A stretch of DNA of 45,635 bases from IMG/VR virus record IMGVR_UViG_2671180631_000012; one strand, written 5' to 3'. A program made the position numbers and the translations under genes. The stretch is from a virus. Lineage: Duplodnaviria; Heunggongvirae; Uroviricota; Caudoviricetes. The notes under the pieces were generated by a model. It was given only the letters and a program-made list of their open reading frames with translations. It did not search any database and was not told the DNA's origin. Below are positions 335 through 35,840 of this stretch, piece by piece. Within the stretch, counting starts at the first letter, position 1. Every line of letters starts with the position of its first letter.

Positions 335-4994
<4,660 letters not shown>

Positions 4995-5702: not shown

Positions 5703-6472
5703 TTGTCGGTATACCTCTCTCGTTTGCTCAGTTGTTCAGGAATATGGTGCAGCAGCTCGCCGTCACCACAGTAAATGGCGGCATGATTCGGCACCGATGA
5801 ACCAAAACAGCACAGCAGCACATCGCCCGGCTGCGCCGTTGACAACGGCACCTGATACAGCCCTGTAGCCTCCAGATTATCCAGATAGAGATTCTGACCA
5901 TTACGCCACCAGTCGTCCTCACGATGAAAATCTGGCATCTCAATTCCCGCCAGATGGTAAGCGTCCCGGAACAGCGTGTAACAGTCCGTCACCCCGTGCT
6001 CAAAGCGCCGCCCGGTGAGATGCGGCACACAGCGGAACTTGTGAATCGCCCCGCGGCAGACCAGCCACCACGACAAATCACTCTGCACCTGCAGCCGCCG
6101 GTCGGCCTCACTCAGCCAGGGCAGACCACCGGGGTGGCTGTGGACCAGCGCCACAATCTCACCCTGCATCTCTGCCTGCAGCCAGTCNNNNNNNNNNNNN
6201 NNNNNNNNNNNNNNNNNNNNNNNNNNNNNNNNNNNNNNNNNNNNNNNNNNNNNNNNNNNNNNNNNNNNNNNNNNNNNNNNNNNNNNNNNNNNNNNNNNNN
6301 NNNNNNNNNNNNNNNNNNNNNNNNNNNNNNNNNNNNNNNNNNNCGGCTCACCGGAAATATTCACGCAGGGAAAATATCTTTCCCCCTCCGGTGTTCTCAC
6401 CACGAAGCCGCACGACTCCGCTGGCGCACATCGCCGGGCGTGCGCCAGAATCGCTGATTCTGTCTGTGTCAT
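5600..6472 (-). CDS. K: Tail assembly protein K (JAB/MPN-like HSHP...SEAD motif plus NlpC/P60-like C-terminus); contains a scaffold gap
   Basis: ORF starts MTQTESAILAHARRCAPAESCGFVV as recalled for lambda K; HSHPGGLPWLSEAD motif present; 3' end overlaps the start of I. Confidence 0.8.
   Translation of the reverse strand: MTQTESAILAHARRCAPAESCGFVVRTPEGERYFPCVNISGEPXXXXXXXXXXXXXXXXXXXXXXXXXXXXXXXXXXXXXXXXXXXXXXXXXXXXDWLQAEMQGEIVALVHSHPGGLPWLSEADRRLQVQSDLSWWLVCRGAIHKFRCVPHLTGRRFEHGVTDCYTLFRDAYHLAGIEMPDFHREDDWWRNGQNLYLDNLEATGLYQVPLSTAQPGDVLLCCFGSSVPNHAAIYCGDGELLHHIPEQLSKRERYTDKWQRRTHSLWRHRAWHASAFTGICSDLAAASTFV
6188..6343. other. Assembly gap (156 N) inside K
   Basis: N run; translated as X residues in the K ORF. 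Confidence 0.9.
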
Positions 6473-28552: not shown

Positions 28553-29095
28553 TCAAGCCATTTTCTCAGCAAATGATTCACGCATGGGAATATATAGGGC
28601 ATACTCAGCAACAGCTAACCAATTAGCAATCCGTTTTTCGCATGTGCTAAAACACCACTCTGGGTGTGCATCATTTAGCAATTCAGCCATTTTGCGCTTA
28701 GTCATCCCCCGCCCTTCATAGCGTTGCCGGAGAATGCAAATCAATCCTGGATGCTCTGCCAGCACCTCACTTATGACTCGATCAATACATAACGCCTCTG
28801 CATCAGTACAATGCGCCAGCCAGCTCTTTTGCTTGCCGTTGATCATCTCTCGCAAAAACGCTTCCAGCTCAGCTTTCTCTATTCCCGCTTTTTTCATTCT
28901 GCGCAGGGCTTCATTAATGGCTGTTTTCGTCAGTTTTTTGGATGCCAACAACTGATTGAACATATTCCCTGACCTGCCACCGCCAATATACGACCAGCGC
29001 CCCCACATACGTAGTTTTCCCTGAATCCAGACACTTTCCAGCGTGGTGAGGCGAAGGTGTTCTCCGCTTTTTCCTGTATTCGTTGGGTAAATCAT
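28553..29095 (-). CDS. Late-gene antiterminator Q-like protein
   Basis: 180-aa ORF immediately upstream of the lysis cassette leader and downstream of nin-like genes; C-terminal region has a sigma-region-4-like HTH pattern. Assignment mainly positional. Confidence 0.55.
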   Translation of the reverse strand: MIYPTNTGKSGEHLRLTTLESVWIQGKLRMWGRWSYIGGGRSGNMFNQLLASKKLTKTAINEALRRMKKAGIEKAELEAFLREMINGKQKSWLAHCTDAEALCIDRVISEVLAEHPGLICILRQRYEGRGMTKRKMAELLNDAHPEWCFSTCEKRIANWLAVAEYALYIPMRESFAEKMA

Positions 29096-29382
29096 AAATG
29101 ACCTTTCTTTCTCCAGATTTCTTGTGTGCGAAAAACCCCTTCAGCATGCATCAGGCGCAATTCTTCTTTGGTGTAATCGCTGGTTTTTACCCGCCCGTCG
29201 ATTAGATCGTGGCATGAGCTACAGGCTATCGCCGCCTGCATATCATGTGGTTTTGTCGCTGTTCCGCACGTCCCCGCCAGCCTGTAATGCGCCAGCACAG
29301 AGGTTTCGGGATTGTGATTGCAGTAGCCAGGGATTCTGATCTGGCACATCTGGCCTTTAGCCGCTTTACGTAAATTCACCAT
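29092..29382 (-). CDS. Cys-rich zinc-binding nin-region protein (DUF1364-like, recalled)
   Basis: 96 aa with Cys clusters (C-x7-C ... C-x2-C); typical position upstream of Q. Confidence 0.45.
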   Translation of the reverse strand: MVNLRKAAKGQMCQIRIPGYCNHNPETSVLAHYRLAGTCGTATKPHDMQAAIACSSCHDLIDGRVKTSDYTKEELRLMHAEGVFRTQEIWRKKGHL

Positions 29383-29981
29383 TACGCAAACTCCAGTAGT
29401 TGTGCGGCCACATTTTCAACTTCCTCCTGAGAGGAGAATTTACGGAACAGAATCCAGTTCCACAGCACATTCAGTACAGATTTATAAACCTGCTGAAACT
29501 CGACTTCGTCCATATTCGCAAAAGCGATGGATTTTGCCCGACGCCCACGGCTACCGTCCGGATAAATATGCTCGGTGTAAAATCCGGCCTGAATGGTTAC
29601 CCACTCGCGGAAAGCCTCAAACGACTTTAGCAACGCCGTATCCCGGGTTCTACGAGTCGCAACGGTGTTAAGGTATTGCTCTGCGGCATCACTCAGGGCT
29701 GGCGTGTGTTCCCGACCAACTGATTCGCACAGGTAATCAACGAAACCAGACAGCAGTTCTCGTTCGCGAGGCGTGATCGCCCCACCGACCGGAGTCCAGT
29801 AATCGAATCCCAGTTGCAGGAGTTTGAAAAAACGCTTGTGGAATGCGTAGTTACGCACACGCTTAAAGTCTGCGTGTATCCACTCACCTATTTTGATTTG
29901 ATGCAGAAAATCGCAACTCTCCGGCGTCGCCGGGAGAAGTAAACCAGAAGAGGTTTGTTTGACCAGTTGTATATGCGCCAT
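29382..29981 (-). CDS. nin-region phage protein (DUF1367-like, recalled)
   Basis: 199 aa; stop overlaps the start of the downstream gene; position in the nin region. Confidence 0.45.
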   Translation of the reverse strand: MAHIQLVKQTSSGLLLPATPESCDFLHQIKIGEWIHADFKRVRNYAFHKRFFKLLQLGFDYWTPVGGAITPRERELLSGFVDYLCESVGREHTPALSDAAEQYLNTVATRRTRDTALLKSFEAFREWVTIQAGFYTEHIYPDGSRGRRAKSIAFANMDEVEFQQVYKSVLNVLWNWILFRKFSSQEEVENVAAQLLEFA

Positions 29982-30261
29982 TTCTCAATCTCTCGATGGC
30001 GCAGCGCAGCAGATGCCAGTTGTTCAGGCTGACGAATAAAGTATAAATAAACTGGCTATGGTGTAAAGCCCCACATAGCATGAACAAACACTACATATCA
30101 AATAGCTGGTACAAGGATAGAAATACGACACTTATTATTAAAAACGATTAGATAAATTACATTTTAATGTTATGCAAAAGTTCTTTTTTATCATAACATT
30201 TCAATAAAAGCATTACAGATGCAATCATCCCGTCATCATCAATTATTTAAGGTGGTTAAAC

Positions 30262-30348
30262 ATGGAAAATAACAAGTTCGCACATCTCGCTCCTTTTTTA
30301 TCCGTAATCCTTTTCGCTTGTTGTTTTATATGGGCATTATTTTTATAA
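30262..30348 (+). CDS. Candidate small hydrophobic protein (28 aa)
   Basis: Own translation MENNKFAHLAPFLSVILFACCFIWALFL; strong SD AAGGTGG 6 nt upstream of the ATG; in the AT-rich intergenic region; below the ORF-track size cutoff. Confidence 0.35.
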   Translation: MENNKFAHLAPFLSVILFACCFIWALFL

Positions 30349-30756
30349 AGTAGCCACATGATAAGTTGCTGGAATCATATTTCCCACTCAAGTCATTAAC
30401 ATTTGATAAGATATATCTAAAAGGACGCCTTTACATTATTTATGCGTATATAATTTATTTATATACACAGTAAAGGTATCCTGGGAAAATATTTATCGTT
30501 AAAAAATACATCATAAATAATTAAGCTGAAATTTCAGAACACAACTAATACACACAATAAGGTTCAGTAACAGTAATCTATGTGGACTACATCGAGATTT
30601 TTTGATTAAACTTTAATAACTTATTCCTAACACACAGAATGCATAAACTAAAAGTAAAACAAATAGTTATACGAAAAACAACCATATTTATTCTATCTTC
30701 TCCTCTAATCAACATATCAATTATGTGTTTCATAACAGCTTGACATAACCCTCCAA

Positions 30757-30779
30757 AAGATGCATTTTTAATGCATGTT
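30757..30779 (+). promoter_or_regulatory. NsrR-box-like inverted repeat overlapping the promoter of the YeaR-like gene
   Basis: AAGATGCATTT-T-TAATGCATGTT, an 11-1-11 inverted repeat close to the recalled NsrR consensus; TTGACA -35-like hexamer at 30740-30745. Confidence 0.45.
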
Positions 30780-30794
30780 TTGGAGGAGGTGGTT

Positions 30795-31133
30795 ATGACA
30801 CACAAGAGAATTCCTAAAGATTGGGTAATCAAACGCTCAACTCCGTTCTTCACAAAAGAGAACGTACCTTCAGCGTTATTAACACATCATAATACAGCAG
30901 CAGGTGTTTTTGGGCAGTTGTGCGTAATGGAAGGCACTGTAACATATTATGGTTTTACTGATGAGAATGCTACTGAACCGGAGATAAAAGTAGTCATTAA
31001 TGCTGGCGCTTTTGCAACAAGCCCACCACAATACTGGCACCGTGTTGAACTAAGCGATGATGCTCAGTTTAATATTAACTTTTGGGTCGCTCCAGACTTT
31101 TCGGGCGAAAAAGTCTATAGCACCAAAAAATAG
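30795..31133 (+). CDS. YeaR-like DUF1971 (cupin-like) protein
   Basis: ORF 30771-31133; preferred start ATG at 30795 preceded by GGAGGAGG; about 112 aa with RSTPFF...FNINFWVAP pattern recalled for the YeaR/TehB-N family; opposite strand to neighbours. Confidence 0.5.
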   Translation: MTHKRIPKDWVIKRSTPFFTKENVPSALLTHHNTAAGVFGQLCVMEGTVTYYGFTDENATEPEIKVVINAGAFATSPPQYWHRVELSDDAQFNINFWVAPDFSGEKVYSTKK

Positions 31134-31163
31134 ATGATCATATTAAAAATGCTTTAACAGTCA

Positions 31164-31199
31164 GACCCGGCAGGGCTATCCCCGACGGGTCTCATTTTT
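31164..31199 (+). terminator. Terminator-like hairpin after the YeaR-like gene
   Basis: Imperfect stem AGACCCG...CGGGTCT followed by CATTTTT, 30 nt after the stop. Confidence 0.45.
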
Positions 31200-31753
31200 G
31201 TAAATATATTGGTTCTACATTGACAGGAGACTTCAACCATAAGAAGTAATCTGAATACTTGAGCAATAAATTTACTTAAGATTAATGAGCGCACCTTGCC
31301 GGACAAAGATAAACCAAGGTAACACCTTTTTTCTAGCCAGTATGTAATCAATCAGAAAGCCGCTCCATAAGAACAACAGCAAGACAATAAATTGCCATTA
31401 CAGCCGCAATAGCCAGCGCACATTTGAGAACCAGCACGACAACCCCCTGTATTAGACGCACACCAGTCCTGATAAATATGAGGCTGTCTCGTCAGTGATT
31501 CAATACAACTATTGGGTATAGTTTCTGTGATTTTATTCTGTAGAAATGGAACACAACAACCAGTCACCACCAGCACTTCCTTAAATGCTCTAAGTCAGAA
31601 ACAAGCCAACATTTTAGTCCGCTTTGAGCGATCTGCAGACATTGCTAGCAGCCTTCTGTGTGAATTCTCAGGGAGCAGGTCGGCATAGCATCACGTTGAG
31701 GCTCTTACCCTACTTGTTCACACCAACCCTAACTCCACAGACTGATTCATAAA

Positions 31754-32755
31754 TTAGTAATCTGCGTGTTTCGCACTTTTCAGAAATGCTTTCATATTTT
31801 CATTAGGTCGCTCAATTTCGAAGTTACTTCCATATAACTCTTGTAATTTTGGCCATAACTTACTTAATAACCCTCTCCTGCGATAAAATGGATGTATCCA
31901 AACGGTAGATAGGTACGGAGAATTTGCATTTGAATTGTTTATTGTGACCAGCCCAACTAAACATTGTCGATAACCACTATTATCCATTGATTGTATTTCT
32001 TCGACGAATGGATACGCGATTACATCAGTCCAACCATGATCGGTTGTATCCCATTGCATTCCGTCATGACATTCCTTCGACTGATAGCGGCGTAAAGCTA
32101 CACACGCGAGCTTTTGCCAATCTGGAGAATTAATTGTGATCTCTTCATCGTATGACGCGCCTATTGGAGCGGGTATTGGTCTGATTAATCCAGCATGGCA
32201 TTCATCATAGAACTTCATGTTTCCCTCAGAAACGTTGTGTACGTTGGGTTGCTCCATGTGTGCGCCATTCAAAAATAGCTCTGATAGTAGTGTATCTACA
32301 CTGTAATCTTTATTGATTATTGTCGGCTTAGAGTTTTTCTTATTAAGGCCGCGAGTAACGATTTTTTGATCAATGTTAACAACATGGAATAATCCGTCGG
32401 GGAGGCTAGCGAACCACGATGGGGCATCGGACCAGAATAGCATGCCTTTTGTACTTCTTAAGAGTTTAATTAAGTTAATACAAGCTTCTTCACTAGTCTT
32501 GCCGTTGATGCGAAGTATGTTAGGACTAAAGTAATATTCATCCATATCAGGGAATGCAGCTTCGCAAAACTCCTGTACATAATTTAGCACCTGGATTCTA
32601 CAGAGATCATCATAGCTGGTAATAACTAAGGGGGTATCTTCATTACTATTATGATTATCAATAATGCAATCTATAGCGAGACTTACTGCTTTGCGTATCA
32701 CTTCAGTTGAATCTAACGACTCTAAAAATTTTGTCTTTCGTGTGCGAATATCCAT
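31754..32755 (-). CDS. Hypothetical protein with GNAT-like C-terminal motif (cargo gene B)
   Basis: 333 aa; AT-rich; C-terminal VWIHPFYRRRGLLSKLW resembles the GNAT acetyl-CoA-binding motif; start 15 nt after the gene A stop. Confidence 0.5.
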   Translation of the reverse strand: MDIRTRKTKFLESLDSTEVIRKAVSLAIDCIIDNHNSNEDTPLVITSYDDLCRIQVLNYVQEFCEAAFPDMDEYYFSPNILRINGKTSEEACINLIKLLRSTKGMLFWSDAPSWFASLPDGLFHVVNIDQKIVTRGLNKKNSKPTIINKDYSVDTLLSELFLNGAHMEQPNVHNVSEGNMKFYDECHAGLIRPIPAPIGASYDEEITINSPDWQKLACVALRRYQSKECHDGMQWDTTDHGWTDVIAYPFVEEIQSMDNSGYRQCLVGLVTINNSNANSPYLSTVWIHPFYRRRGLLSKLWPKLQELYGSNFEIERPNENMKAFLKSAKHADY

Positions 32756-32770
32756 GTATGACCTGCGCTA

Positions 32771-33793
32771 TTAAAATTCATGAATGAACGGTTTGTCATC
32801 TGGTTGCAAAATGGTGGTTTTATTCGTTGCTACATTTAAACTGTTGTAGAGCATAATTGCCAGGTTCGATGCATTTTCAATCAGCGTTTCAAGATCCTGG
32901 TCTGTAATCACTACGAGGTTCCCTTCTTTATCCTTTCCACCACGATGCACTAAGTGATTTCGATTGAGGGTTGCCAATTCAATAGCTTCTATCGGACAGT
33001 CTTTTTGTACTTTTATATCGAATGTAGCTTCATAGCGGTCGATTACCTTTTTAGTGCTATGCCAGCTTGCACTGATCAAGTGTTCCTTGATTGACCTGAT
33101 TAGCTCTCCCCTAATTTTCTCGATGGGTTCACCCTTGAAAGGCAACGCAGCAATATCTTTGCTTACTTTAAATTCAGTCTTACCTTTTTCTATACAATTG
33201 GCTATGTAGACATCATCTTTCTCTATAGAATTAATGAATAGCTCAACATAAAGCGTTTCCAAAGCTGTAATAACATTCGTGTAGAGCAAACTAAGCAAGT
33301 GGTTTTTTTGCTGTTGTTCAGTTTTATCTTTTGCAAGTTTTTTTATTTTATCGATATTATCAATGAATTTTAAATACGGATTACCGGAAGACGTTACAGC
33401 GTCGTAGATATCATCATCGTACCAATCATCTATATTATTTGAGTTTCCAGACCAGTCAAAACATTGTGTTTGTAATTCATCTACTAATTCCTCAATATAC
33501 TCAGATTTAACATATTGACCGAAGATGGATTGTAGTTCTTCGCTCGCATCATACGGCCCGCCATATATGTAAGCATAGCCACCTTCTCTACTTTCATACG
33601 GACAAGCATTTGCCGGATCTTCAAAGTTTTCAAAGAACCAGTTTTTCATTACTTCGAGTTGATCTTTTTTGCTTATGTATTTTAAAGATTTTAGTGGAAC
33701 TTTCTTTCCATTAACCTCGAAAACAATTTTCACGATGTAACGCTCCCTTGTATCAATTGCGCAACTATTATACCACAGCGAAATACAGGGCAT
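32771..33793 (-). CDS. Hypothetical protein with C-terminal HEPN-like Rx4H motif (cargo gene A)
   Basis: ORF 32771-33862; preferred start MPCISLWYN at 33793 with perfect SD GGAGG 7 nt upstream; AT-rich; motif LNRNHLVHRGG encoded at 32945-32962. Confidence 0.5.
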   Translation of the reverse strand: MPCISLWYNSCAIDTRERYIVKIVFEVNGKKVPLKSLKYISKKDQLEVMKNWFFENFEDPANACPYESREGGYAYIYGGPYDASEELQSIFGQYVKSEYIEELVDELQTQCFDWSGNSNNIDDWYDDDIYDAVTSSGNPYLKFIDNIDKIKKLAKDKTEQQQKNHLLSLLYTNVITALETLYVELFINSIEKDDVYIANCIEKGKTEFKVSKDIAALPFKGEPIEKIRGELIRSIKEHLISASWHSTKKVIDRYEATFDIKVQKDCPIEAIELATLNRNHLVHRGGKDKEGNLVVITDQDLETLIENASNLAIMLYNSLNVATNKTTILQPDDKPFIHEF

Positions 33794-33931
33794 AACCTGC
33801 CTCCTTAAACTAACATACCATGAGCCAGCAATGTCCGCTATTGGCACAAAGCGGACAACCACGCTAGCTCTCCCCTGTGCCAGAAAAATGTCAATTTACA
33901 TATGAACTAATGCTCTTTGATCTAGTAACGT

Positions 33932-35147: not shown

Positions 35148-35840
35148 TTACTTCTCAATTCCTGGCTGGACGACATTCGGACGCCAGCTCTCCCAGTTAA
35201 AATTCACCCATCGCCCGCCGTTCATGGNNNNNNNNNNNNNNNNNNNNNNNNNNNNNNNNNNNNNNNNNNNNNNNNNNNNNNNNNNNNNNNNNNNNNNNNN
35301 NNNNNNNNNNNNNNNNNNNNNNNNNNNNNNNNNNNNNNNNNNNNNNNNNNNNNNNNNNNNNNNNNNNNNNNNNNNNNNNNNNNNNNNNNNNNNNNNNNNN
35401 NNNNNNNNNNNNNNNNNNNNNNNNNNNNNNNNNNNNNNNNNNNNNNNNNNNNNNNNNNNNNNNNNNNNNNNNNNNNNGATAGCTGCCGCTAAGTGGTTCT
35501 TCCCGGTACCAGGTTTTCCGCTGAACGCAAAATTTGTACACCCGGTCATCAGTTCATCAGCGATGGATTTCGCCTGACTCAACGCGTATCGCTGCGCTTC
35601 GTTCTGCACCTGGTAATTCGAAAACGAGCATTTGCGGTGCAATGGCTGGATGCCAGAGCGATTCAGAATTTTTTCCACCCGCAACTGACGATTCTGACGG
35701 TTGATCTCCTCACAACGTTTCTGGCCTTCGGAAAGTTGCCACTCGCGCCACTCCGCTACCGTCTTGAATGGCGCGGTTACATGTGACGGGGCCAGTCTGC
35801 GGATACGTTCAAGAACGTCGCCTGTCGCAATATTTTTCAT
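35148..35840 (-). CDS. ydaV: DnaC/IstB-like replication ATPase (helicase loader); contains a scaffold gap
   Basis: Walker [15 protein letters not shown]; follows the YdaU-like gene; N run at 35228-35477 translated as X. Confidence 0.7.
35228..35477. other. Assembly gap (250 N) inside the DnaC-like gene
   Basis: N run. Confidence 0.9.

What the first reader, a model, noticed from the sequence alone, without database searches (positions are those of the whole stretch)
30740..31199. Opposite-strand YeaR-like moron with an NsrR-box-like inverted repeat over its promoter
A plus-strand gene (strong GGAGGAGG SD, own terminator-like hairpin) sits in a minus-strand early region. Its product resembles the DUF1971/YeaR cupin-like family as I recall it. 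Overlapping the promoter is AAGATGCATTT-T-TAATGCATGTT, close to the 11-1-11 NsrR operator consensus; chromosomal yeaR is NsrR- and nitrate-regulated. This suggests a nitrosative-stress-responsive lysogenic conversion gene.
Basis: partly seen in the sequence, partly recalled or inferred. Interest (0 to 1): 0.55.

Follow-up and report, generated by a model that had tools for sequence, protein, structure and literature searches.

The report
NsrR-controlled DUF1971 moron in Rac-like prophage
A temperate E. coli phage carries a small stress gene, an orthologue of Salmonella STM1808, whose promoter is covered by a near-perfect binding site for NsrR, the host's nitric-oxide sensor, so lysogens probably gain a nitric-oxide-inducible protein that E. 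coli K-12 lacks at the corresponding chromosomal site.

Summary
Window 30795-31133 (+) encodes a 112-aa DUF1971 protein (Pfam E=2.3e-26). It has a consensus -35, a GGAGGAGG ribosome-binding site and its own terminator hairpin, and it lies antisense inside the early/nin region of a Rac-like lambdoid prophage.

The repeat AAGATGCATTT-T-TAATGCATGTT (30757-30779) scores 27.6 bits on an NsrR matrix built from 26 published CFT073 sites. Only ytfE scores higher. The next best site in the window scores 12.7 bits, and the best of 100 shuffles scores 20.3.

The protein is not the YeaR orthologue (41% identity). It belongs to the STM1808 / Vibrio fischeri 3DL3 group (75-82% identity). In all 51 Enterobacteriaceae species orthologues with readable upstream sequence, a box of at least 20 bits lies 38-50 bp before the start codon. 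It overlaps a -10 placed 17 bp from a conserved -35-like hexamer.

K-12 has no gene at the syntenic dsbB site. The prophage module occurs in 467 of 5426 complete E. coli genomes.

NsrR binding, nitric-oxide induction and the protein's biochemistry are inferred, not shown. Nitrate/NarL control as in yeaR is unsupported. This is a new member of a known kind and is moderately interesting.

The parts
30740..30745 (+). -35 hexamer TTGACA (consensus)
   Evidence: Read directly. A TTGACA/TTTACA/TTGACG-type hexamer sits in the same place, 11 nt before the NsrR box, in the phage, Kluyvera/Leclercia and Klebsiella/Raoultella groups.
30757..30779 (.). NsrR-type operator, 11-1-11 inverted repeat AAGATGCATTT-T-TAATGCATGTT
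   Evidence: 27.6 bits on the NsrR matrix, next best in the window 12.7, highest of 100 shuffles 20.3. A box is conserved upstream of the orthologues in 52 of 80 species loci and in all 35 E. coli-type viral loci with upstream sequence.
30763..30768 (+). Most likely -10 hexamer, CATTTT, 17 bp after the -35 and inside the operator (box positions 7-12)
   Evidence: Inference from spacing. The same register reads TATTTT, TATATT or CATATT in the orthologous promoters. The promoter scan did not call it, because only 3 of 6 positions match. An alternative register, TTTAAT at 30767-30772, also lies inside the box.
30750..30786 (.). Extended palindrome: 17-nt arms 30750-30766 and 30770-30786 with one mismatch. 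The left arm holds CCTCC and the right arm the GGAGG of the ribosome-binding site.
   Evidence: Read directly and tabulated. Two-sided changes between alleles occur at 3 pairs, which is not significant. Meaning unknown.
30782..30789 (+). Shine-Dalgarno sequence GGAGGAGG, 5 nt before the ATG
   Evidence: Read directly.
30795..31133 (+). DUF1971 gene, 112 aa plus stop; orthologue of the Salmonella gene downstream of dsbB (STM1808) and of V. fischeri PDB 3DL3
   Evidence: Pfam PF09313 E = 2.3e-26. PDB 3dl3 E = 3.5e-59 and YeaR 3bb6 E = 1.6e-24. 75-82% identity to chromosomal orthologues. dN/dS about 0.08-0.2 between phage alleles.
31163..31199 (+). Intrinsic-terminator-like hairpin (AGACCCG...CGGGTCT, 31163-31192) followed by CA TTTTT (31195-31199)
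   Evidence: Fold of the 72-nt stretch: -19.4 kcal/mol, z = -2.4. Missed by the simple scan because of the long loop.

Best explanation
This is a phage moron: a self-contained cassette of promoter, operator, gene and terminator. It is carried antisense between the replication/cargo region and the nin/Q region of a Rac-like lambdoid prophage of E. coli and Shigella. The cassette encodes the E. coli version of the STM1808-type DUF1971 cupin-like protein.

Its sigma-70 promoter has a consensus -35, a 17-bp spacer and a weak -10 (CATTTT). A near-consensus 11-1-11 operator for NsrR, the host's [4Fe-4S] nitric-oxide sensor, covers the -10 and the predicted start site.

Proposed mechanism:
1. In unstressed lysogens, holo-NsrR occupies the operator and blocks RNA polymerase.
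2. Nitric oxide nitrosylates the NsrR cluster, NsrR leaves the DNA, and a short-leadered mRNA (about 15-20 nt with a strong ribosome-binding site) is made.
3. The mRNA ends at the cassette's own terminator.
4. The protein adds to nitrosative-stress tolerance, as reported for STM1808 in Salmonella.

Shown here: the sequence elements, the family and orthology assignment, the operator's matrix score, its conservation in register with the promoter across Enterobacteriaceae, and the module's distribution. Inferred: NsrR binding, nitric-oxide derepression, the start site, and any fitness effect. The biochemical activity of the protein is unknown.
For: - Anatomy read directly; terminator fold.
- Family: DUF1971 at 92 bits. 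A solved orthologue, 3DL3, matches at E = 3.5e-59.
- Operator score: 27.6 bits, second only to ytfE among known sites, more than twice the next best site in the window, and above all 100 shuffles.
- Phylogenetic footprint: 52 of 80 species loci have a box of at least 20 bits starting 38-66 bp before the ATG (38-50 bp in the enterobacterial ones). These include all 51 Enterobacteriaceae loci with readable upstream sequence (Kluyvera, Leclercia, Citrobacter, Klebsiella, Raoultella, Salmonella and others). One Leclercia locus scored only 12 bits in the ungapped scan although it contains an evident box. Nothing else in those 8-kb enterobacterial loci exceeds 14.2 bits. Synonymous sites between the phage gene and these orthologues are saturated.
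- Promoter register: a -35-like hexamer lies exactly 11 nt before the box in three lineages.
- Viral collection: a degenerate NsrR-box pattern hit 22 stretches among 2.9 million viral contigs, and 16 of them are upstream of this gene.
- Orthology: the Salmonella orthologue lies directly after fadR-nhaB-dsbB. K-12 has no gene at that site.
- Literature: STM1808 is listed as an NsrR-regulon gene with a virulence role (PMC7527575, PMC7082413). A 'tehB homolog' was predicted as an NsrR target in all enterobacteria and in Photobacterium (PMC1274295).
- Moron status and selection: the module is in 467 genomes against 1329 for the neighbouring nin block; hokD occupies the slot elsewhere; the ORF is intact in all viral loci and dN/dS is about 0.1-0.2.
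- Viable phages: the module is present in three sequenced phages, vB_EcoS-666R9, -673R7 and -613R10.
Against: - There is no experimental evidence for this locus. Nothing on it was found in the held literature.
- The matrix comes from sites that were partly selected computationally (PatSer on ChIP-seq peaks).
- The -10 is weak, and the promoter scan did not call a plus-strand promoter here.
- The commonest phage allele, AACACGCATTTATAATGCATGTT (18 of 35 viral loci), has a damaged left half-site. It scores only 20 bits, comparable to ygbA and yeaR but equal to the top shuffle. Tight repression is therefore not universal.
- Most Vibrionaceae orthologues have no box upstream, so the gene-operator link is lineage-specific.
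- The Karlinsey 2012 paper could not be read. Details about STM1808, such as zinc binding and His32/His82, rest on my memory.
Confidence: 0.8

Rival explanations
1. The palindrome acts mainly as a nucleic-acid structure, or as the site of another protein, and not as an NsrR operator. One version: a hairpin in read-through RNA hides the ribosome-binding site. Another: it is a processing or pause signal in the minus-strand phage early transcript.
For: - The complementarity runs beyond the 23-bp box to 17-nt arms and includes GGAGG paired with an upstream CCTCC.
- A few alleles change both arms together, for example CCTCC/GGAGG against CCTCA/TGAGG, and CCATC/GATGA.
- Citrobacter orthologues have arms of about 20 bp.
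- Rfam's only match in the region is a chance-level microRNA-hairpin hit on this palindrome.
Against: - The core is conserved as sequence, not merely as pairing. Eight of 17 pairs never vary, and the ATGYAT...ATRCAT core persists across genera with saturated synonymous sites.
- The covariation is not significant: 3 pairs, reached by 127 of 500 shuffles.
- With the conserved -35, transcription starts inside the right arm, so the left arm is not in the mRNA. No upstream plus-strand promoter was predicted.
- The arm extensions differ in sequence between lineages and do not include the ribosome-binding site in Citrobacter. Template-switch 'correction' of quasi-palindromes could produce them neutrally (my inference).
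Confidence: 0.08
2. The gene is a prophage copy of yeaR and, like chromosomal yeaR-yoaG, is controlled mainly by nitrate through NarL, with NsrR only modulating.
For: - Same Pfam family, and the same type of operator over the promoter as in yeaR.
- yeaR is among the genes most induced by nitrate in CFT073.
Against: - Only 41% identical to YeaR, against 75-82% to the STM1808/3DL3 group.
- No yoaG follows; a terminator does.
- The consensus TTGACA -35 argues against dependence on an activator.
- No perfect NarL heptamer and no 7-2-7 site with fewer than 4 mismatches. That scan also missed the real yeaR site, so this last point is weak.
Confidence: 0.07
3. The cassette is a neutral passenger that no longer does anything useful in E. 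coli, and the box is an inherited relic.
For: - The commonest allele has a degraded left half-site.
- E. coli already has yeaR.
- The biochemical function of DUF1971 is unknown.
Against: - The ORF is intact in all 37 viral loci, and 347 complete genomes hold at least 80% of the 901-bp module.
- dN/dS is about 0.08-0.2.
- The -35, the right half-site, the ribosome-binding site and the ATG are kept in every allele.
- The module stays linked to the nin block while the neighbouring cargo slot turns over.
Confidence: 0.05

Closest known systems
Salmonella Typhimurium STM1808 (NsrR-regulon DUF1971 protein; Karlinsey et al. 2012, Mol Microbiol 85:1179, as cited in PMC7527575 and PMC7082413)
   Same: - Same orthologous group: about 79% identity over the full length, 112 against 113 aa.
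- Invariant H31, H32 and H82.
- An NsrR box overlaps the promoter (20.8 bits in the S. enterica subsp. diarizonae locus).
   Different: - STM1808 is a chromosomal gene directly after dsbB and its terminator. Here the gene rides on a lambdoid prophage, antisense to the early operon.
- The spacing differs: the box starts 38 bp before the ATG here and 50 bp in Salmonella.
- The upstream DNA is unrelated, AT-rich and 813 bp long, and the cassette has its own terminator.
- Identifying the Salmonella orthologue as STM1808 rests on LT2 gene order recalled from memory.
E. coli yeaR-yoaG operon (NsrR- and NarL-regulated; Lin et al. 2007, as cited in PMC5320621)
   Same: DUF1971 protein whose promoter carries an 11-1-11 NsrR site (AAATGGTATTTAAAATGCAAATT).
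   Different: - A paralogue, not an orthologue: 41% identity.
- No yoaG partner.
- Consensus -35 here, against an activator-dependent promoter in yeaR.
- Stronger operator here: 27.6 against 22 bits.
Vibrio fischeri 'tellurite resistance protein B', PDB 3DL3 (structural-genomics entry)
   Same: Orthologue; phmmer E = 3.5e-59 over residues 1-111. It gives the fold of this protein.
   Different: Chromosomal. The A. fischeri loci show no NsrR box upstream (best 6.9 bits). No function was attached to the entry.
Classical lambdoid morons and lysogenic-conversion genes (for example lambda bor and lom, Gifsy-2 sodCI) - from general knowledge
   Same: An extra gene with its own promoter and terminator, lying between conserved phage modules. 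It can be expressed from the repressed prophage and is present or absent among relatives.
   Different: Here the promoter appears to be wired to a specific host stress sensor (NsrR) through an operator inherited with the gene.

Membership tests
Pfam DUF1971 (PF09313) | Profile match above the curated gathering score over the whole domain | tested here: met
   92 bits against a cut-off of 23.1, E = 2.3e-26, profile positions 1-80 of 80.
STM1808 / 3DL3 orthologous group of DUF1971 proteins | High full-length identity to the single-domain protein of about 112 aa encoded after dsbB in Salmonella, Citrobacter and Klebsiella, with conserved histidines at positions 31, 32 and 82 | tested here: met
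   - 73-82% identity to 19 diverse members, with H31, H32 and H82 invariant.
- The Salmonella locus has fadR-nhaB-dsbB immediately upstream.
- 3DL3 matches at E = 3.5e-59.
- The name STM1808 and the role of the histidines come from memory, not from a tool.
YeaR orthologue (yeaR-yoaG operon) | Close identity to YeaR, with yoaG immediately downstream | tested here: not met
   41% identity to K-12 YeaR. A terminator follows the stop codon and there is no yoaG-like ORF.
NsrR regulon promoter | 11-1-11 inverted repeat matching the NsrR matrix at the level of proven sites | tested here: met
   27.6 bits. Proven sites in leave-one-out scoring: ytfE 30.9, hcp 24.8, yeaR 22.0, ygbA 20.7, hmp 16.1.
NsrR regulon promoter | Operator overlaps the core promoter, so that binding represses | tested here: met
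   The box covers the position 17 bp after a consensus -35. The same register is conserved in three lineages. The start site itself is inferred.
NsrR regulon promoter | NsrR binds in vitro or in vivo, and expression is derepressed by NO or in an nsrR mutant | not testable with these tools
   Needs EMSA, ChIP and reporter assays. No data set for a strain carrying this prophage was found.
Phage moron | Own promoter and terminator, transcribed independently of the flanking phage operon | tested here: met
   Consensus -35, a strong ribosome-binding site and a terminator hairpin, on the opposite strand to all neighbours. Sequence-level evidence only.
Phage moron | Present in some and absent from other closely related phages, at a module boundary | tested here: met
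   - The DUF1367/DUF1364 block is in 1329 genomes and the DUF1971 module in 467.
- hokD occupies the slot in two prophages without the module.
- The adjacent cargo slot is variable.
NarL/nitrate-activated promoter (as in yeaR) | NarL 7-2-7 heptamer pair upstream of the promoter | tested here: inconclusive
   The best match has 4 mismatches and there is no perfect heptamer. The same scan also gave only 4-mismatch matches on the real yeaR promoter, so it lacks sensitivity.

The most novel reading that the evidence does not exclude
The cassette may be more than a stress gene. Its promoter is gated by NsrR and fires head-on into the prophage's early transcript, between the replication genes and the Q antiterminator. 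De-repression by nitric oxide could therefore interfere with transcription reaching Q, coupling the prophage's lytic development to the host's NO status. The extended palindrome pairs an upstream CCTCC with the ribosome-binding site. It could additionally ensure that only transcripts started at the NsrR-controlled site are translated.
Probability: 0.07. Interest if true: 0.7.

Novelty: new member of a known kind. Interest (0 to 1): 0.4.

Why it matters
If the inference holds, a family of temperate phages found in about 9% of complete E. coli genomes, and also in Shigella, delivers a ready-wired member of the nitric-oxide stress regulon. E. coli K-12 lacks this gene at the corresponding chromosomal site. 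Its Salmonella orthologue has been linked to NO resistance and virulence.

That would be a clear example of a prophage gene plugged into a host sensor through an operator that travels with the gene. It would also give a natural gain-of-function system for studying the unknown biochemistry of DUF1971 proteins. The allelic series of operators (28, 27 and 20 bits) found in natural phages is a ready-made experiment on repression strength.

Tried and rejected
- Other regulator sites. Consensus scans of 30560-30800 for NarL 7-2-7, FNR and Fur sites found nothing within 3, 2 and 7 mismatches respectively. The NarL scan is uninformative because it also fails on yeaR.
- Rfam. A search of 29900-31800 at E <= 1 gave only a chance-level microRNA-hairpin hit on the palindrome.
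- Covariation in the extended palindrome. Three pairs change on both sides, which is not significant, so I do not claim a structure.
- NsrR boxes in other phages. A degenerate box pattern scanned across 2.9 million viral contigs gave 22 hits. Sixteen were this gene. The other 6, on 5 distinct sequences, lie in AT-rich or coding DNA with no related gene downstream and look like chance.
- Karlinsey et al. 2012. It could not be read by PMC id or by PubMed id. Searches for NsrR with DUF1971, for DUF1971 alone and for STM1808 gave nothing on a prophage copy.
- Candidate transcriptome and in-vivo-expression papers. Neither paper mentions this gene.
- Recent transfer from a sampled species. This is rejected. 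The best chromosomal relatives are 82% identical and synonymous sites are saturated.

Full report
**What is in the sequence**

Window 30740-31199 holds a compact plus-strand cassette:
- TTGACA at 30740-30745.
- A 23-bp inverted repeat, AAGATGCATTT-T-TAATGCATGTT, at 30757-30779.
- GGAGGAGG at 30782-30789.
- An ATG at 30795, opening a 112-codon frame that ends at 31133.
- A hairpin, AGACCCG...CGGGTCT, at 31163-31192, followed by TTTTT at 31195-31199.

The 72-nt stretch around the hairpin folds at -19.4 kcal/mol, z = -2.4 against shuffles. The simple terminator scan missed it because of its long loop. That scan also called no plus-strand promoter, since the best -10 matches only 3 of 6 positions.

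Every neighbouring gene is on the minus strand. These are DUF1367, YbcO/DUF1364 and a DUF1133/Q-like antiterminator at lower coordinates (28553-29981). At higher coordinates come two hypothetical genes, a DUF977 gene and the replication genes. The identical region in E. coli LD39-1 lies in a prophage with recE, racC, kilR, sieB and trkG, that is, a Rac-like lambdoid prophage. The cassette is also present in three sequenced phages, vB_EcoS-666R9, -673R7 and -613R10.

**The protein**

It matches Pfam DUF1971 over the whole domain (92 bits, cut-off 23.1, E = 2.3e-26). Its only NCBIfam match is the N-terminal part of the long TehB model, far below that model's cut-off.

It is only 41% identical to E. 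coli K-12 YeaR, and no yoaG follows it. It is 73-82% identical over its full length to single-domain proteins of Kluyvera, Leclercia, Citrobacter, Klebsiella, Raoultella, Salmonella, Vibrio, Aliivibrio, Photobacterium and Shewanella. It matches the solved V. fischeri structure 3DL3 at E = 3.5e-59. H31, H32, C43, H82 and E85 are invariant in the 20-sequence alignment. H32 and H82 also align with histidines of YeaR.

The Salmonella orthologue sits immediately after fadR-nhaB-dsbB. By LT2 gene order, which I recall and did not look up here, that gene is STM1808. Papers I could read list STM1808 as an NsrR-regulon gene with a role in virulence, citing Karlinsey et al. 2012. That paper itself is not held. 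In E. coli K-12, dsbB is followed directly by umuC, so the chromosomal orthologue is missing at the syntenic site.

**The operator**

I built a palindromic weight matrix from the 26 distinct 11-1-11 NsrR sites tabulated for E. coli CFT073 (PMC5320621, Table 4). Results:

| Sequence scored | Bits |
|---|---|
| Window site 30757-30779 | 27.6 |
| Same site, matrix restricted to ChIP-positive plus proven sites | 26.5 |
| Next best site in the 45.6-kb window | 12.7 |
| Maximum per shuffle, 100 dinucleotide shuffles | mean 13.5, sd 2.5, highest 20.3 |
| ytfE (leave-one-out) | 30.9 |
| hcp (leave-one-out) | 24.8 |
| yeaR (leave-one-out) | 22.0 |
| ygbA (leave-one-out) | 20.7 |
| hmp (leave-one-out) | 16.1 |

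Only ytfE among the known sites scores higher.

**Comparative evidence**

This is the strongest argument. In 80 species loci holding an orthologue, 52 have a box of at least 20 bits upstream of the ATG. It starts 38-50 bp upstream in the enterobacterial loci and 66 bp upstream in one Photobacterium locus. The 52 include all 51 Enterobacteriaceae loci with readable upstream sequence. One Leclercia locus scored only 12 bits in the ungapped scan although it contains an evident box. Nothing else in the 8-kb enterobacterial loci exceeds 14.2 bits.

Synonymous sites between the phage gene and these orthologues are saturated, and dN is about 0.11-0.13. Conservation of the box is therefore not simply recent common descent. 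Most Vibrionaceae orthologues lack a box, while two Photobacterium loci have one (28.8 and 18.4 bits). This agrees with the 2005 prediction of a 'tehB homolog' in the NsrR regulon of enterobacteria and Photobacterium profundum (PMC1274295).

Anchoring the promoters on the box shows a -35-like hexamer exactly 11 nt upstream in the phage, Kluyvera/Leclercia and Klebsiella/Raoultella groups: TTGACA 14, TTTACA 14 and TTGACG 9 of the 65 distinct alleles. This puts a -10 at box positions 7-12 with a 17-bp spacer, reading TATTTT, TATATT or CATATT in the orthologues and CATTTT in the window. The operator therefore covers the -10 and the predicted start site, which is the usual arrangement for repression. 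An alternative -10 register, box positions 11-16, also lies inside the box.

**Distribution and moron status**

- The 901-bp module is found in 467 of 5426 complete E. coli genomes, where the gene is annotated 'DUF1971 domain-containing protein' or 'TehB family protein'.
- The adjoining DUF1367/DUF1364 block is in 1329 genomes. In two prophages without the module, the slot holds the hokD toxin gene.
- In all 35 E. coli-type viral contigs, the block Q - DUF1364 - DUF1367 - 813-bp AT-rich spacer - DUF1971 is kept, and most also keep about 500 bp beyond the gene. The DNA further on is a variable cargo slot.
- The ORF is intact in all of them. dN/dS between phage alleles is about 0.08-0.2, based on few substitutions.
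- G+C content is 41% for the gene, 31% for the upstream spacer and 47% for the window.
- A degenerate NsrR-box pattern hit 22 stretches among 2.9 million viral contigs. Sixteen are this cassette and the other six look like chance.

**Allelic variation of the operator**

Among the 35 E. coli-type viral loci:

| Operator allele | Loci | Bits |
|---|---|---|
| Window type, AAGATGCATTTTTAATGCAT(G/C)TT | 6 | 28-29 |
| AAGGTGCATTTATAAT(G/A)CAT(G/T)TT | 10 | 26-27 |
| AACACGCATTTATAAT(G/A)CATGTT | 18 | 19-20 |
| AAGGAGCATTCATAATGCATGTT | 1 | 17.6 |

The -35, the right half-site, the ribosome-binding site and the ATG are constant. The commonest allele weakens the left half-site and creates a TATAAT at box positions 11-16. 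Repression strength probably differs between natural phages.

**Mechanism proposed**

Holo-NsrR of the host binds the operator and blocks the cassette's sigma-70 promoter in unstressed lysogens. Nitric oxide inactivates NsrR and a short-leadered mRNA is made and efficiently translated. Transcription stops at the cassette's terminator before entering the neighbouring cargo genes. The protein contributes to nitrosative-stress tolerance as reported for STM1808.

The sequence elements, the orthology and the conserved operator-promoter geometry are shown. Binding, induction, the start site and the phenotype are inferred. The protein's biochemical role is unknown. My recollection that STM1808 is a zinc protein needing His32 and His82 could not be checked.

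**Rivals**

- Structure instead of operator. The palindrome extends to 17-nt arms (30750-30766 and 30770-30786), pairing an upstream CCTCC with the GGAGG of the ribosome-binding site. A few alleles change both arms together. However, covariation is not significant (3 pairs, reached by 127 of 500 shuffles). The core is conserved as sequence, and the left arm lies upstream of the predicted start site.
- A yeaR-like, NarL-driven promoter. This is not supported: 41% identity, no yoaG, a consensus -35 and no NarL site. The NarL scan is insensitive.
- A decaying passenger. This is unlikely given the intact ORFs and purifying selection.

**Verdict**

NsrR-regulated DUF1971 genes and phage morons are both known kinds. 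A prophage-borne, NsrR-wired copy that supplies E. coli with the orthologue it lacks at the syntenic chromosomal site was not found in any paper I could search. It is best called a new member of a known kind. It is of moderate interest and easy to test.

Noticed in passing
window 30263-30349 (+): A small ORF of 28 aa, MENNKFAHLAPFLSVILFACCFIWALFL, very hydrophobic, with the ribosome-binding site AAGGTGG 6 nt upstream. It lies in the conserved 813-bp AT-rich spacer. It is intact in all 38 related loci, with three peptide variants, and is not annotated in RefSeq. Related prophages without this module carry the hokD type I toxin in the same slot, so it may be a small membrane or toxin-like peptide.
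   Followed up: partly
window 30750-30786: The NsrR-box palindrome extends to 17-nt arms. The left arm holds CCTCC and the right arm the GGAGG of the ribosome-binding site. Some natural alleles change both arms together, but not significantly. Citrobacter orthologues have arms of about 20 bp (GGCATCTAT...ATAGATGCC) with similar symmetric variants. Cause unknown: selection, extra NsrR half-sites, or template-switch correction of a quasi-palindrome.
   Followed up: partly
L004-L025 (Kluyvera, Leclercia, Pseudescherichia and related loci), about 20-45 nt upstream of the NsrR box: A conserved Fur-box-like sequence, GATAATGAGATTTATTATC, lies just upstream of the -35 of the chromosomal orthologues. 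Similar sequences occur in two Photobacterium loci. This suggests joint Fur and NsrR control there. The phage promoter has no such site.
   Followed up: no
window 31754-33862 (-): Two adjacent hypothetical genes of 333 aa and 363 aa. The first has a weak GNAT acetyltransferase match (E = 9e-4) and the second a weak HEPN/RES N-terminal domain match (E = 2e-4). They occupy a variable cargo slot and occur in only 6 of the related viral loci. They may be a defence or toxin-antitoxin pair.
   Followed up: no
window 1761-1918, 3644-3950, 6188-6343, 35228-35477: Four runs of N (871 bases in all) mask parts of the window. None is near the finding.
   Followed up: no
viral loci L084-L105, promoter of the same gene: The commonest natural allele, AACACGCATTTATAATGCATGTT, weakens the left NsrR half-site and at the same time creates a perfect TATAAT at box positions 11-16. 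That hexamer lies 21 bp from the TTGACA. Whether this allele is expressed constitutively or uses a different promoter geometry is open.
   Followed up: partly
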